NCBI GenBank assembly: GCA_963705325.1
Contig: OY970069.1
Location: 4,199,172 to 4,263,171, forward strand
Origin: an uncultured Alphaproteobacteria bacterium
Lineage (GTDB): Bacteria > Pseudomonadota > Alphaproteobacteria > ATCC43930 > CGMCC-115725
Direction of reading: 5' to 3'
DNA length: 64,000 nt
The notes beneath the pieces were generated by a model. That model was not told where the DNA came from, did no database searches, and worked only from the letters and a program-made list of their open reading frames with translations. Positions 23,452-30,208 of the stretch are shown one piece after another. The stretch's first letter is position 1. Every line of letters begins with the position of its first letter. The position numbers and the translations under genes are program-made.

Positions 23452-23507
23452 TTGCCGCAGACCGACGACGAGGCTATATACCCGCGCGGTGCGGAAAGGA
23501 TCGAACG

Positions 23508-23735
23508 ATGAAAGAGGGCATCCACCCCGACTACCACGAGATCACCATCCTGATGACCGATGGCAGCTCGTACAAGACGCGCTCGACCTACGGCAAGCCA
23601 GGCGACACGCTGCGCCTCGACATCGATCCGAAATCGCACCCGGCTTGGACGGGCGGCCAGCAGCGCCTGCTCGATACCGGCGGCCAGCTCGCCCGCTTCA
23701 ACAAACGGTTCCAAGGCTTCGGCATCAAGAGCTAG
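23508..23735 (+). CDS. rpmE: 50S ribosomal protein L31
   Basis: [29 protein letters not shown]...; 75 aa. Confidence 0.95.
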
Positions 23736-23777
23736 TTGGGAAGAGCGCCGTCTCGCTGGCGCTCCTCCCAACCGCGC

Positions 23778-24176
23778 TCAGTTGATCGCGATCCGCCGCG
23801 GCAGCGCTTCCTTCGCCTTCTTCAGGGCCAGCGTAAGTACGCCGTCTTCGACGTGCGCGCTGACTTGTTCTTGGTCCAGTTTGTTCGACAGGGTGAATGA
23901 GCGCGCGAAATGCCCGACATTGTACTCGGTGTAGAGCGGTTCCAGCCCATCGTAATTGGCGAAGTTGATCTTCGCCTCGACCCGCAGCACGTCGTCTTCG
24001 ATCTTGACCTCGATATCCTCCTTTCCGACACCGGGAATTTCCATGATGACGGTTAATGCGTCATCGGTCTCGTAGATGTCGGTGTTCGGTAGGAAGTAAC
24101 GCGACGGCACAGTCAATTCTTCCTTGCCGACAACCTCCTTCTTCTCCTGCACTTGCAGCTCTTGCGACCTGGCCAT
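23778..24176 (-). CDS. Hsp20/alpha-crystallin family small heat shock protein
   Basis: 132 aa alpha-crystallin domain (DIYETDDALTVIMEIPGVGKEDIEVKIEDDVLRVEA...). Second hsp20 gene of the operon. Confidence 0.9.
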   Translation of the reverse strand: MARSQELQVQEKKEVVGKEELTVPSRYFLPNTDIYETDDALTVIMEIPGVGKEDIEVKIEDDVLRVEAKINFANYDGLEPLYTEYNVGHFARSFTLSNKLDQEQVSAHVEDGVLTLALKKAKEALPRRIAIN

Positions 24177-24212
24177 CTCAATCCTCCGCGTCCTTATCCT
24201 TCCGCGTCAAGT

Positions 24213-24638
24213 TCAGCCGATTGCGATGGTTTTCGGCTTGTCGCGCTCGGCGCGTGGCAAATAAAGGGCGAGGACCCCATCCCGGCACTCGGCCTTGACG
24301 GCGTCCGCGTCGATTTCAACCGGCACCGTGACGGCTCGGTCGAAATGCCCGGCACGGCGCTCGCGGCGGTGCAGTGCGGCCGCCTCGCCGTAATCGATAG
24401 TCTTACTGCCGCTGAGCCGGATCGTGTTGCCCTTCACCTGCACCTGGATGTCCGCCTTGCGGACGCCAGGGACCTCGGTGATCACCACCACGTCCTCGCC
24501 CCTGCGGAAAACGTTGAGCGGTGGATAGGCCCCGGCCGCGCTGGGGCTACTCCCCAACCAGGAACTAGCCCGGAAGGCATCCAGCGTCTGCTGGAACTGT
24601 TGCAGCGTATCGAACGGGTCGGGAAACAGCATCGCCAT
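24213..24638 (-). CDS. Hsp20/alpha-crystallin family small heat shock protein
   Basis: 141 aa (PPLNVFRRGEDVVVITEVPGVRKADIQVQVKGNTIRLSG...). Confidence 0.9.
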   Translation of the reverse strand: MAMLFPDPFDTLQQFQQTLDAFRASSWLGSSPSAAGAYPPLNVFRRGEDVVVITEVPGVRKADIQVQVKGNTIRLSGSKTIDYGEAAALHRRERRAGHFDRAVTVPVEIDADAVKAECRDGVLALYLPRAERDKPKTIAIG

Positions 24639-24640
24639 GA

Positions 24641-24666
24641 CGAGCCTCCCTCGATCTAGAGGCTCG
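24641..24666 (-). promoter_or_regulatory. perfect 8-bp hairpin sequestering the hsp20 Shine-Dalgarno (thermometer/coupling-type structure)
   Basis: The mRNA reads CGAGCCUC-UAGAUCGAGG-GAGGCUCG-UC-AUG. The 3-prime arm contains part of the GGGAGG SD. The loop begins with the UAG stop of the upstream small ORF. Confidence 0.5.
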
Positions 24667-24850
24667 GAAACACGCGCGGCCAGATCGGCGGCGGCGATAT
24701 CGGCGGAAAGACGATGTCGTCGTCACGTACCTGTCGCATGCTCGGCGACGAGTCAGTCCACTCACCGGCTTCCCGCTGGCGACCGGATTTCCGGTTCCAG
24801 TTCCGGATGGCGATGTTGACGGATTGGTCGGTGTTAGCTTCGACGGTCAT
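24656..24850 (-). CDS. candidate 64-aa small protein, first gene of the hsp20 operon
   Basis: ATG at 24850 is preceded by AAGGGAGAA. Translation is MTVEANTDQSVNIAIRNWNRKSGRQREAGEWTDSSPSMRQVRDDDIVFPPISPPPIWPRVFPSL. Third-position GC is about 80%, like the real genes here. I do not recognise a family. Confidence 0.4.
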   Translation of the reverse strand: MTVEANTDQSVNIAIRNWNRKSGRQREAGEWTDSSPSMRQVRDDDIVFPPISPPPIWPRVFPSL

Positions 24851-24921
24851 TGCCACGTTCTCCCTTGAGCAACATGGAAAGCAATCGATGTCGGACCCGC
24901 TGTGGCGCCCGGCGGCCATCG

Positions 24922-24949
24922 ATTTAGGAAGCGTACGCGGCGGTTCAAG
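24922..24949 (-). promoter_or_regulatory. heat-shock-type promoter motif CTTGAA-N15-CCTAAAT (minus strand)
   Basis: On the minus strand, the -35 CTTGAA is at 24949..24944 and CCTAAAT is at 24928..24922. The hexamers and spacing are identical to the divergent plus-strand motif. Confidence 0.4.
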
Positions 24950-24978
24950 AGGTCCCAGACAACTCGCGCGACCGGATG

Positions 24979-25006
24979 CTTGAAACCGAATTGAAGCTGC
25001 CTAAAT
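24979..25006 (+). promoter_or_regulatory. heat-shock-type promoter motif CTTGAA-N15-CCTAAAT (plus strand)
   Basis: CTTGAA at 24979-24984 and CCTAAAT at 25000-25006. As I recall it, this fits the alphaproteobacterial RpoH-type pattern CTTG-N17-CYTATNT. Confidence 0.4.
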
Positions 25007-25012
25007 TACCTA

Positions 25013-25108
25013 TGTGCGGTCGCCCCTTGGGGGCCGTGCGTTGAGATCGGGGCTGGGCCATGGGGCCAGCCCGACAACCCGTGTCGCTCATTGGAGGATA
25101 TGGTCATG
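25013..25108 (+). promoter_or_regulatory. ROSE-like 5-prime UTR RNA thermometer
   Basis: About 95-nt leader with a strong hairpin GGGCUGGGCC-AUG-GGGCCAGCCC. The 3-prime segment GUCGCUCAUUGGAGGAUAUGGUCAUG closely resembles the conserved ROSE hairpin (UUGCUCCUUGGAGGAUUUGGCUAUG, from memory). Confidence 0.55.
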
Positions 25109-25573
25109 GATCGTTTCGACTTTTCACCTTTGTTCCGTTCGACGATCGGCTTCGATCGCCTCGCCCGTCTGGTCGATAGCGCCACCCGCTTCGACGGCGC
25201 GGCTCCCACCTACCCGCCGTACAACATCGAGTCGACCGGCGAAGACTCCTACCGCCTGACCATGGCGGTGGCTGGCTTCTCGCGCGACGAGATCGACATC
25301 ACGGTGCAGGAGAACTCGCTGGTGATCTCGGGCAAGGCGCAGAAGGAGGATGAAGAGGCGAATGGCCGCTATCTGCATCGCGGCATCGCCCGGCGCGCCT
25401 TCGAGCGACGCTTCAGCCTTGCCGACCACATCAAGGTGAGCGGCGCGAGCATGGTTAACGGCTTGCTGCACGTCGACCTGGTGCGCGAAGTACCGGAAGA
25501 GGCCAAGCCTCGCCAGATCAAGATCGGCGACGTGGCAAAGCAGCCGCAGGTGACGCAGCAAAAGGCCGCGTAA
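25106..25573 (+). CDS. Hsp20 family small heat shock protein (IbpA-like)
   Basis: MDRFDFSPLFRSTIGFDRLARLVDSA...YPPYNIE..., IbpA/HspA-like. Start moved to the third ATG (25106) because GGAGGA at 25093-25098 is the SD. Confidence 0.9.
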   Translation: MDRFDFSPLFRSTIGFDRLARLVDSATRFDGAAPTYPPYNIESTGEDSYRLTMAVAGFSRDEIDITVQENSLVISGKAQKEDEEANGRYLHRGIARRAFERRFSLADHIKVSGASMVNGLLHVDLVREVPEEAKPRQIKIGDVAKQPQVTQQKAA

Positions 25574-25597
25574 CTGATGCGCTCTAGCCGAAATGGA

Positions 25598-25627
25598 AAC
25601 GCCCCCGGGAGACCGGGGGCGTTTTTC
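25598..25627 (+). terminator. intrinsic terminator
   Basis: AACGCCCCCGG-gaga-CCGGGGGCGTT followed by TTTTC. Lies between the convergent hsp20 and corA genes. Confidence 0.75.

Positions 25628-28499: not shown

Positions 28500-30208
<1,709 letters not shown>

What the first reader, a model, noticed from the sequence alone, without database searches (positions are those of the whole stretch)
24641..24915. Small ORF whose stop codon lies inside the hairpin masking the hsp20 ribosome-binding site
From the minus-strand promoter, a ~65-nt leader with a ROSE-like GUUGCUCAAGGGAGAACGUGGCAAUG segment precedes a 64-codon ORF (24850..24656). The ORF has gene-like GC3 and a Pro-rich C-terminus.

Its UAG is the first triplet of the loop of a perfect 8-bp hairpin (CGAGCCUC/GAGGCUCG). 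The 3-prime arm of that hairpin contains the SD of the downstream hsp20 gene (AUG at 24638).

A terminating ribosome would melt the stem. The arrangement therefore looks like obligatory translational coupling layered on a thermometer. I know of no described family for the peptide.
Basis: inference. Interest (0 to 1): 0.65.

Follow-up and report, generated by a model that had tools for sequence, protein, structure and literature searches.

The report
Heat-switched small protein gene before hsp20
The small ORF is a real, conserved gene for a roughly 60-residue disordered protein with a fixed C-terminal tail, switched on by an RNA thermometer. It belongs to an undescribed family found in front of chaperone genes (hsp20, htpG) or alone, so it is more than a leader for hsp20.

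Summary
On the minus strand, a conserved promoter and a short ROSE-type thermometer place the SD and AUG (24850) of a 64-codon ORF in the thermometer hairpin. Its UAG (24658-24656) sits at the loop edge of an 8-9 bp hairpin. That hairpin buries the SD of hsp20 (AUG 24638).

The ORF is conserved: in 52 of 55 related loci the ROSE AUG reads in frame (55-70 codons) to an invariant tail, ...SPPPxP[WF]PR[VI]FP[GS]L-COOH. The tail has dN/dS about 0.13. The N-terminal part is almost free (about 0.66), with equal dS, so selection acts on the peptide, not on RNA.

The stop-in-hairpin junction is lineage-specific. The gap from stop to hsp20 varies from 7 to 125 nt, with no shared structure. The same ROSE-sORF cassette precedes htpG in Reyranella, including cultured R. 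soli. In the window's closest syntenic relatives it stands alone.

No Pfam, NCBIfam, PDB or literature match exists, and AF2 predicts disorder.

Best reading: a thermometer-gated small heat-shock protein that acts in trans through a C-terminal docking motif (partner unknown). In this genome it also transmits the thermometer's state to hsp20 by translational coupling. A nascent-peptide arrest role is not excluded.

The parts
24922..24949 (-). Sigma-70-type promoter: -35 CTTGAA (24949-24944), 16-nt spacer, -10 CTAAAT (24927-24922)
   Evidence: Read from the sequence. The same CTTGAA-N16/17-C(T/C)AAAT arrangement lies upstream of the sORF in all relatives inspected. The simple promoter scan did not call it because its -10 rule differs.
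24844..24912 (-). Short ROSE-type RNA thermometer with two hairpins. Hairpin 1 is 24911-24892. The thermometer hairpin is 24877-24853 and holds the SD GGGAG with a bulged G opposite it. The AUG follows at 24850.
   Evidence: Rfam ROSE scores 33.7 bits here, below the gathering score of 45. Orthologous leaders reach 48.7 and 46.3 bits in L001 and L003. The consensus structure of 25 leaders shows compensatory changes in hairpin 1 and an invariant SD hairpin with a bulged G.
24656..24850 (-). sORF of 64 codons plus UAG: MTVEANTDQSVNIAIRNWNRKSGRQREAGEWTDSSPSMRQVRDDDIVFPPISPPPIWPRVFPSL
   Evidence: GC3 is 0.78. Homologues of 52-86 aa were found in 164 clusters by the indexed search and about 122 clusters by the exhaustive search. 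The frame is conserved in 52 of 55 loci.
24659..24697 (-). Conserved C-terminal module of the peptide (SPPPIWPRVFPSL). Its invariant core is [WF]PR[VI]FP[GS]L-COOH, preceded family-wide by an acidic patch and a hydrophobic triad.
   Evidence: Position-specific frequencies come from 214 family members. dN/dS is about 0.13 for the tail and about 0.66 for the N-terminal part, at equal dS. AF2 pLDDT peaks at 87 here while the rest is disordered. Codon and stop usage are atypical.
24641..24666 (-). Junction hairpin. The 5' arm CGAGCCUC (24666-24659) is the last sORF codons. UAG (24658-24656) sits at the loop edge. The 3' arm GAGGCUCG (24648-24641) contains the hsp20 SD GGAGG (24649-24645).
   Evidence: dG is -16.3 kcal/mol at 37 C and -12.5 at 50 C. 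z = -2.2. The hairpin appears in the minimum-free-energy and centroid folds of the 306-nt leader. An alternative fold exists. The junction is identical in the 98%-identical relative L074, absent in L075 and not conserved elsewhere.
24213..24638 (-). hsp20 gene 1 (141 aa), whose AUG lies 17 nt after the sORF stop
   Evidence: Pfam PF00011, E 6e-19. Orthologues were found in 41 loci. A 151-nt metatranscriptome contig matches 24519-24669 exactly and spans the sORF-hsp20 junction.
23778..24176 (-). hsp20 gene 2 (132 aa), the third cistron
   Evidence: Pfam PF00011, E 4e-19. The same pair follows the sORF in L071, L074 and L075.
25016..25573 (+). Divergent hsp20 gene (the second hsp20 type here) with its own ROSE (25016-25110). 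It is context, not part of the operon.
   Evidence: Rfam ROSE 34.7 bits. The ROSE-core AUG is at 25106. Pfam PF00011. It is kept next to the sORF in the syntenic loci L042 and L043.

Best explanation
The ORF is the promoter-proximal gene of a heat-shock operon, sORF-hsp20-hsp20. A constitutive sigma-70-type promoter makes an mRNA whose short ROSE thermometer hides the sORF's SD at low temperature and releases it on heat shock.

The product is a protein of about 60 residues, intrinsically disordered and acidic. Its only constrained part is a C-terminal module: an acidic patch, a hydrophobic triad, SPPPxP and then [WF]PR[VI]FP[GS]L-COOH. I infer that this module is a short linear docking motif. 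Through it, the protein would act in trans on a conserved partner of the heat-shock or proteostasis machinery, such as a chaperone (DnaK, HtpG or an sHsp) or a protease or adaptor. The variable N-terminal part would serve as a flexible spacer.

In this particular genome a second, local layer exists. The hsp20 SD is locked in a hairpin of about -16 kcal/mol made with the last sORF codons. hsp20 can therefore be translated only when a ribosome finishing the sORF opens it. This passes the thermometer's decision on to hsp20.

Shown here: the gene, its thermometer, frame and tail conservation, protein-level selection, disorder, the variable genomic contexts and the local hairpin.

Inferred: heat induction, trans action, the identity of the partner and the dependence of hsp20 on sORF translation.
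For: - Thermometer: the ROSE alignment places the SD and AUG of the sORF where ROSE normally holds an hsp start. Orthologous leaders pass Rfam's threshold. The bulged-G SD hairpin is invariant in 25 leaders, and hairpin 1 shows compensatory changes.
- Coding: in 52 of 55 loci the ROSE AUG is in frame and open for 55-70 codons despite hypervariable sequence and length. GC3 is gene-like.
- Protein-level selection: the tail has dN/dS 0.13 and the rest 0.66, at equal dS of about 1. Arg codons switch between CGN and AGR. The hairpin that the tail codons can form shows no covariation.
- Family: there are 164 indexed and about 122 exhaustive clusters, nearly all 52-86 aa, with the motif always at the very C-terminus.
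- Disorder: the protein is disordered except for the motif.
- Independence from hsp20: the closest syntenic relatives carry the sORF with no downstream gene. Other stand-alone copies exist. A Reyranella clade carries ROSE-sORF-htpG.
- Local coupling: the hairpin energetics and the 17-nt gap support it. A transcript contig crosses the junction.
Against: - There is no experimental evidence of translation, heat induction or a binding partner. The metatranscriptome support is a single low-depth contig.
- The tail uses rare codons and avoids UGA stops. A purely trans-acting protein does not predict this, and it hints at a role for ribosome dwell time at the ORF end.
- In the window, an alternative fold of the junction is near-isoenergetic.
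- The sample of genomic contexts is small and partly biased by how the loci were retrieved.
Confidence: 0.55

Rival explanations
1. Cis-acting nascent-peptide sensor. [quoted passage not shown] It would hold the ribosome at or near the stop codon, in the manner of TnaC, PepNL, SecM or MifM. The paused ribosome would keep the downstream SD open or protect the mRNA, so that chaperone synthesis (hsp20, htpG) is gated by something that relieves or enforces the pause.
For: - The conserved part is the last 8-22 residues and always abuts the stop, while the N-terminal part is nearly free to vary.
- The tail is rich in Pro, Trp and Arg, as in known arrest peptides.
- The last codons are enriched in rare codons: TTT 67% against 18.5%, and CTA plus CTT 50% against 11%. 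Stops are UAG or UAA in 79% against 36%.
- The cassette lies directly 5' of chaperone genes in two architectures.
- In the window, a ribosome paused at the stop would hold the hsp20 SD open.
Against: - Stand-alone copies have a convergent or unrelated gene next to them and so have nothing to regulate. They include the window's closest syntenic relatives.
- All three stop codons occur.
- The distance to the next gene varies from 7 to 125 nt, and no conserved SD-masking structure exists in either the hsp20 or the htpG architecture.
- PPP is absent in many members.
Confidence: 0.15
2. Pure coupling adaptor. The sORF would exist only so that a ROSE-gated ribosome reads up to the next gene's start, giving translational coupling or mRNA protection. 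The peptide itself would have no function.
For: - The window junction hairpin, and the 7-8 nt gaps in L028 and L031 where the stop overlaps the SD.
- htpG in the Reyranella clade has no room for its own promoter in the 28-37 nt gap.
- The N-terminal two-thirds evolve almost neutrally.
Against: - The C-terminal tail is under strong amino-acid-level purifying selection, and its position is fixed at the stop in 214 members.
- Stand-alone genes exist.
- In most hsp20 loci the gap is about 90-125 nt, and hsp20 has a strong SD of its own.
Confidence: 0.07
3. The conserved element would be an RNA motif, such as a hairpin or anti-SD in the last 27 nt, rather than a peptide. Alternatively, the ORF would be a chance open frame in GC-rich DNA behind a relic ROSE.
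For: - The tail codons can form a GGCCN.GGR/YCCNGGCC hairpin.
- Codon usage in the tail is atypical.
- Open frames of about 64 codons are not rare at 64% GC.
Against: - Synonymous sites in the tail diverge as fast as elsewhere: pS is 0.545 against 0.552.
- Arg alternates between CGN and AGR.
- The hairpin shows no covariation: 243 of 500 shuffles do as well.
- The frame is kept in 52 of 55 loci across many indels.
Confidence: 0.03

Closest known systems
ROSE RNA thermometers in front of rhizobial small heat-shock operons (Rfam RF00435; Narberhaus and co-workers, from my own knowledge; ROSE-controlled sHSPs in rhizobia are mentioned in PMC11784457)
   Same: Both have a sigma-70-type promoter and a structured 5' UTR. 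In both, the last hairpin pairs the SD with UUGCUC and leaves a bulged G, with the start codon just 3' of it. Both belong to an operon containing hsp20 genes.
   Different: The gene at the ROSE start codon is not an sHsp. It is an uncharacterised disordered protein of about 60 aa. The element is short, about 65 nt with two hairpins, and the window copy scores below Rfam's threshold. The same cassette also drives htpG or stands alone.
Short ROSE-like thermometers of Pseudomonas ibpA (PMC3669281), and the layered control of E. coli ibpAB with a second thermometer before ibpB (Gaubig et al. 2011, from my own knowledge)
   Same: Both involve two-hairpin ROSE-like elements. Both show a second layer of translational control at an internal cistron of an sHsp operon.
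   Different: Here the second layer is a heat-stable hairpin (-12.5 kcal/mol at 50 C). It needs an upstream ribosome to open it rather than heat, and the first cistron is a small non-sHsp ORF.
Regulatory upstream ORFs with arrest peptides: SecM-secA, MifM-yidC2, TnaC, PepNL (PMC11890864 for termination arrest)
   Same: Both are small ORFs 5' of a regulated gene, with a conserved C-terminal peptide and a variable N-terminus. In both, the downstream SD can be masked by a structure that a ribosome at the ORF end opens, as in the window.
   Different: No conserved SD-masking structure exists, the spacing varies, and all three stop codons occur. Many copies have no downstream gene. No targeting signal or ligand logic is evident.
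Leader peptides and small stress proteins with trans functions: peTrpL of Sinorhizobium (PMC7968998), and heat-induced small proteins such as E. coli YobF (Hemm et al. 2010, from my own knowledge)
   Same: All are very small proteins encoded at the 5' end of operons or induced post-transcriptionally by stress. Their function is not limited to cis control.
   Different: There is no sequence relationship. The present family is longer, disordered, and defined by a C-terminal motif and a ROSE leader.
Disordered linker plus conserved C-terminal peptide designs, such as the SSB C-terminal tip, the FtsZ C-terminal peptide and the SspB ClpX-binding tail (from my own knowledge)
   Same: The architecture is the same: a variable disordered spacer, an acidic stretch, and a short conserved hydrophobic or aromatic peptide ending at the free carboxyl terminus.
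   Different: This is an analogy of design only. The motif sequence is unrelated, and no partner is known.

Membership tests
ROSE RNA thermometer (RF00435) | Lies in the 5' UTR between a sigma-70-type promoter and the start codon of a heat-shock gene | tested here: met
   The promoter CTTGAA-N16-CTAAAT and a leader of about 65 nt end at AUG 24850. The arrangement is conserved in relatives. The gene served is the sORF, not an sHsp.
ROSE RNA thermometer (RF00435) | The final hairpin pairs the SD with U(U/C)GCU(C) and leaves a bulged G opposite the SD | tested here: met
   In the window fold, CCAUGUU pairs with AACGUGG and CUC pairs with GAG, with a bulged G. The same pairs are invariant or wobble in 25 leaders.
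ROSE RNA thermometer (RF00435) | Covariance-model score at or above Rfam's gathering score of 45 bits | tested here: inconclusive
   The window scores 33.7 bits. Orthologous sORF leaders score 48.7 (L001), 46.3 (L003), 38.9 (L043) and 38.5 (L005). The shortfall comes from about 28 deleted model positions, the middle hairpin.
ROSE RNA thermometer (RF00435) | Canonical length of 70-120 nt with three or four hairpins | tested here: not met
   There are only two hairpins in about 65 nt. The element is therefore a short ROSE or ROSE-like variant, as described for Pseudomonas ibpA (PMC3669281).
ROSE RNA thermometer (RF00435) | Temperature-dependent opening of the SD hairpin and heat-induced translation | not testable with these tools
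   Only predicted energies are available: -10.7 kcal/mol at 37 C and -7.5 at 50 C. These ignore the non-canonical pairs.
Translational coupling through an SD-masking hairpin | The upstream stop lies within a ribosome's reach of the downstream SD and AUG | tested here: met
   The gap is 17 nt, and the SD lies 7-11 nt after the stop.
Translational coupling through an SD-masking hairpin | The downstream SD is sequestered in a stable structure whose other arm lies inside the upstream ORF | tested here: met
   The stem has 8-9 bp, dG is -16.3 kcal/mol and z = -2.2. It is not conserved in relatives, and an alternative fold exists.
Translational coupling through an SD-masking hairpin | Downstream translation depends on upstream translation | not testable with these tools
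   This needs reporter fusions with start, stop and stem mutations.
Ribosome arrest (monitoring) peptides | Conserved C-terminal residues with a variable N-terminal part | tested here: met
   dN/dS is 0.13 for the tail against 0.66 for the rest.
Ribosome arrest (monitoring) peptides | Always placed 5' of a regulated gene, with a conserved structure that the stalled ribosome remodels | tested here: not met
   Stand-alone copies exist. No conserved junction structure exists.
Ribosome arrest (monitoring) peptides | Stable peptidyl-tRNA or a toeprint at the arrest site | not testable with these tools
   This needs in vitro translation or ribosome profiling. Rare codons and stop-codon bias in the tail are only suggestive.
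Hsp20/alpha-crystallin family | Presence of an alpha-crystallin domain (PF00011) | tested here: not met
   The sORF product and 40 relatives have no Pfam or NCBIfam hit. AF2 predicts no fold. The two downstream genes do have the domain.

The most novel reading that the evidence does not exclude
The invariant tail ([WF]PR[VI]FP[GS]L followed by a stop, written in rare codons and mostly RF1-read stops) would be a termination-pausing nascent peptide. The ROSE-sORF cassette would then be a ribosome-based monitor that combines temperature (the thermometer) with a second cellular signal (release of the pause). It would set the synthesis of downstream chaperones such as hsp20 and htpG. This would be a SecM/MifM-like monitoring substrate for cytoplasmic proteostasis.
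Probability: 0.12. Interest if true: 0.85.

Novelty: new variant of a known kind. Interest (0 to 1): 0.62.

Why it matters
ROSE thermometers are textbook regulators of small heat-shock genes. Here the thermometer serves an unannotated small protein that is conserved across Stellaceae- and Reyranella-like soil Alphaproteobacteria. That protein is linked to two different chaperone genes, hsp20 and htpG.

If the peptide docks on a chaperone or protease, it would be a new heat-shock cofactor or regulator in bacteria. No HtpG co-chaperone is known in bacteria. If instead it acts from within the ribosome, it would be a new class of monitoring peptide.

Either way, it adds a conserved member to the bacterial small proteome that gene callers name only "hypothetical" or miss. 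It is testable in a cultured organism, Reyranella soli. The window's own junction also gives a clean natural example of a thermometer whose output is relayed to a second gene by ribosome-dependent hairpin opening.

Tried and rejected
- The single-sequence protein search found only one near-identical hit. The family appeared only through relatives of hsp20 and a profile.
- I looked for a conserved structure pairing the sORF 3' end with the downstream SD. None was found in the hsp20 loci or the htpG loci.
- I tested whether the tail's conservation is RNA-based. The candidate hairpin shows no covariation, and synonymous divergence is not reduced.
- I looked for a conserved second thermometer at the hsp20 start, with the SD pairing to codons 4-6. 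It is seen in some loci (WIN, L075, L005, L010) but is inconsistent.
- The PDB profile search gave only a chance WPRIFP match in BexL.
- Pfam and NCBIfam gave nothing.
- Metatranscriptomes yielded only fragmentary contigs.
- The literature searches found no description of a ROSE-controlled small ORF or of this motif. The older rhizobial papers (Münchbach 1999, Nocker 2001) are not held. I therefore could not check whether a small ORF in a Bradyrhizobium ROSE operon was ever noted.
- The alignment-based scan of metagenome contigs first failed for lack of conserved columns. When repeated, it was biased to the htpG clade.
Full report
**1. What is in the window**

Read on the minus strand, the region begins with a promoter: -35 CTTGAA at 24949-24944, a 16-nt spacer, and -10 CTAAAT at 24927-24922. 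A leader of about 65 nt follows. Rfam's ROSE model aligns end to end with it at 24912-24844, scoring 33.7 bits with E 0.005. That is below the gathering score of 45, because the middle part of the model is deleted.

The fold has two hairpins. The first is 24911-24892. The second is 24877-24853, where CCAUGUU pairs with AACGUGG and CUC pairs with GAG. This encloses the SD GGGAG and leaves a bulged G opposite it, which is the ROSE signature. The AUG at 24850 sits exactly where ROSE elements carry the start codon of a heat-shock gene.

From that AUG, 64 codons run to UAG at 24658-24656. The ORF list also gives an 87-aa version from ATG 24919. That ATG lies 3 nt after the -10 box and is unlikely to be on the mRNA. 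GC3 of the ORF is 0.78, like its neighbours at 0.76-0.83.

The last codons (CGAGCCUC, 24666-24659) pair with GAGGCUCG (24648-24641), which contains the SD GGAGG of an hsp20 gene (AUG 24638; Pfam PF00011). The stop codon lies at the edge of the loop. The hairpin is worth -16.3 kcal/mol at 37 C and still -12.5 at 50 C. It stands out moderately from shuffles, with z -2.2 and 6 of 200 folding as well.

With more flanking sequence, another fold becomes the predicted minimum-free-energy structure. In it, the SD pairs with hsp20 codons 4-6. The SD is masked in both folds, with P(unpaired) 0.08.

A second hsp20 gene follows at 24176-23778. A divergent hsp20 with its own ROSE lies upstream at 25016-25573.

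**2. The ORF is a conserved gene**

A single-sequence search found only one near-identical protein. Fetching loci around orthologues of the 141-aa hsp20 (Stellaceae, Reyranella and related MAGs) showed more. About half of them carry, upstream, an ORF that starts at the AUG of a ROSE hairpin and ends in ...WPR[VI]FP[GS]L followed by a stop.

The middle of the peptide is hypervariable in sequence and length. Over all loci gathered later, the ROSE AUG is in frame with the tail and free of stops in 52 of 55, at 55-70 codons. Of the exceptions, L024 has homopolymer frameshifts in a nanopore MAG, L002 lacks the ROSE and the 5' part, and L072 simply escaped my ROSE pattern.

A profile search returned 164 clusters of small proteins, all either unnamed or named only "hypothetical protein" and without Pfam domains. 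An exhaustive HMM search of 1.84 billion representatives gave 123 hits. One was a Pro-rich 1437-aa outlier. Nearly all the rest are 41-86 aa with the match running to their last residue.

In 214 distinct members the median length is 62 aa. The conserved module has four parts:
- an acidic patch at positions -22 to -18;
- a hydrophobic triad (L/V-F-V);
- S-P-P-P-x-P;
- [WF]-P-R-[VI]-F-P-[GS]-L-COOH, with P, R, F and P invariant.

No member matches Pfam or NCBIfam. The PDB search gave only a chance match. AlphaFold2 with the family alignment predicts no secondary structure. Its confidence rises only over the tail, to pLDDT 87.

**3. Selection acts on the peptide, not on RNA**

I computed Nei-Gojobori estimates on 13 pairs of loci. 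The N-terminal part gives pooled dS 1.00 and dN 0.66. The last 14 codons give dS 0.97 and dN 0.13.

Synonymous sites in the tail therefore diverge as fast as elsewhere, while amino-acid changes are suppressed five-fold. Arg alternates between CGN and AGR codons. The tail codons can form a small hairpin, but it shows no covariation: 243 of 500 shuffles do as well.

One feature remains unexplained. The tail is written in rare codons:
- Phe TTT 67% against 18.5% in long ORFs of the same contigs;
- final Leu CTA plus CTT 50% against 11%;
- Arg AGR 26% against 5.6%.

It also ends in UAG or UAA in 79% of 34 non-redundant loci, against 36% in the background. The loci are related, so these p-values are optimistic.

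**4. The thermometer belongs to the sORF throughout the family**

All inspected members have the same promoter boxes and a two-hairpin leader. In the alignment of 25 leaders, the SD hairpin with its bulged G is invariant. Hairpin 1 shows compensatory changes at several pairs. The sORF leaders of L001 and L003 pass Rfam's ROSE threshold at 48.7 and 46.3 bits.

**5. Context shows it is not simply an hsp20 leader**

Three architectures occur.

(A) ROSE-sORF-hsp20-hsp20, as in the window. The gap between the sORF stop and the hsp20 AUG ranges from 7 to 125 nt. Folding each junction reveals no shared pairing between the sORF end and the hsp20 SD. Most long-gap loci have a strong SD of their own. 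L075, a close relative of the window with a 24-nt gap, masks the SD and AUG with a different hairpin, GGAGGAG paired with CUUUUCC. L074, at 98% identity, has the window's junction unchanged.

(B) ROSE-sORF-htpG, with a 28-37 nt gap, in at least 20 loci. HtpG homology assigns this clade to Reyranella. The cultured Reyranella soli carries it. An Enhydrobacter genome has htpG without the sORF, behind a sigma-32-like promoter. The spacer has a conserved sequence but no conserved SD-masking structure.

(C) ROSE-sORF alone, with a convergent or unrelated gene next to it. L042 and L043 share the window's synteny (ureEFG, then the divergent hsp20, then the sORF, then rpmE) but lack the two hsp20 genes. 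L046, L050 and the contig of P0117 are also of this type.

A gene that persists alone, with its thermometer and its tail intact, must have a function of its own.

**6. Mechanism**

Shown here: a thermometer-type leader gating the sORF start; a translated frame; a peptide tail under purifying selection; disorder; association with heat-shock genes; and, in the window, a stable SD-masking hairpin overlapping the sORF end.

Inferred: heat induction, by analogy with ROSE; a trans-acting role in which the C-terminal module docks on a conserved partner of the proteostasis machinery; and, for this genome, dependence of hsp20 translation on sORF translation.

The coupling inference rests on two points. 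At -16 kcal/mol the hairpin should essentially abolish independent initiation. A ribosome with UAG in its A site covers the whole 5' arm and reaches the SD. The design of a disordered spacer, an acidic patch and a hydrophobic or aromatic carboxy-terminal tip recalls the tails of SSB, FtsZ and SspB, which recruit partners. That is an analogy from my own knowledge, not a test.

I put the composite explanation at 0.55. The claim [quoted passage not shown] is about 0.9. "Acts in trans" is about 0.5-0.6. "Couples hsp20 here" is about 0.6.

**7. Rivals**

The nascent-peptide arrest rival is attractive for three reasons: the conserved part abuts the stop, it is rich in Pro, Trp and Arg, and it is written in slow codons with mostly RF1 stops. 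Four findings weaken it. Stand-alone copies exist, all three stops occur, spacing varies, and no conserved remodelled structure is present. I give it 0.15.

A pure coupling adaptor with an irrelevant peptide fails on the tail's dN/dS and on the stand-alone copies (0.07). An RNA element or a chance ORF is largely refuted (0.03).

**8. Transcription evidence is thin**

Only metagenomes and a few metatranscriptomes hold this sequence. One 151-nt RNA contig matches 24519-24669 exactly and crosses the sORF-hsp20 junction. Another covers the divergent hsp20 leader. This is compatible with co-transcription but does not prove it.

**9. Comparison and novelty**

The thermometer is a short variant of a known family, ROSE or ROSE-like. 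Layered translational control in sHsp operons is also known. What I could not find described is a conserved small protein occupying the ROSE-controlled first cistron, its C-terminal motif, or its link to htpG. I looked in Pfam, NCBIfam, PDB, source annotations and the searchable literature. The older rhizobial papers could not be read. A passing earlier mention of a small ORF in a ROSE operon therefore cannot be excluded.

I class the finding as a new variant of a known kind, of moderate to high interest. It is directly testable in Reyranella soli.

Noticed in passing
window 24656-24682 and the equivalent tails in 34 non-redundant loci: The last eight codons and the stop of the sORF family use strongly atypical codons: TTT, CTA/CTT, AGR, and UAG/UAA instead of UGA. 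The comparison is with long ORFs on the same contigs. Synonymous divergence is not reduced, and there is no RNA covariation. This remains unexplained and may reflect selection for slow decoding or termination.
   Followed up: partly
L042 1844-2995; L043 1774-2925 (syntenic with window 23500-25600): The closest syntenic relatives have ureEFG, the divergent hsp20, the sORF and rpmE, but no hsp20 pair after the sORF. The two hsp20 genes of the window were therefore either gained or lost as a block between the sORF and rpmE.
   Followed up: partly
L076 1284-3369 (Reyranella soli, GCA_007992495.1); L077 1352-3378 (Enhydrobacter sp., CP126889): The cultured R. soli carries ROSE-sORF-htpG. Its gene caller started the sORF inside the ROSE loop (MEDVMMQIG...). 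The Enhydrobacter genome has htpG without the sORF, behind a CTTG-N17-CTTATAT sigma-32-like promoter. The two regulatory solutions for htpG are thus interchangeable.
   Followed up: partly
window 25016-25110 (+) and 25091-25573 (+): The divergent hsp20 has its own ROSE at 34.7 bits, also below Rfam's threshold. The ROSE core places its start at ATG 25106, not at the TTG 25091 given by the mechanical ORF list.
   Followed up: partly
L075 745-790; L005 and L011 around 2480-2530; window 24620-24650: In several loci the hsp20 SD, and sometimes the AUG, pairs with U-rich codons 4-6 of hsp20 itself (for example GGAGGAG with CUUUUCC). This could be a second, fourU-like thermometer. The pattern is inconsistent across loci.
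   Followed up: partly
window 29769-30056 (+): Rfam 5_ureB_sRNA matches at 104 bits inside the urease gene cluster. This is probably conservation of the ureB coding sequence rather than an sRNA.
   Followed up: no
L024 2176-2389; L002 2009-2386: The L024 sORF is broken by single-base losses in homopolymers of a nanopore MAG, which is probably assembly error. L002 keeps the tail and the downstream hsp20 genes but has no ROSE and no 5' part of the sORF.
   Followed up: partly
L001 3835-3926 (+): A further canonical ROSE at 55.9 bits lies about 0.9 kb downstream of the end of the first hsp20 match (2923) in L001. Some relatives therefore have several ROSE-controlled units side by side.
   Followed up: no
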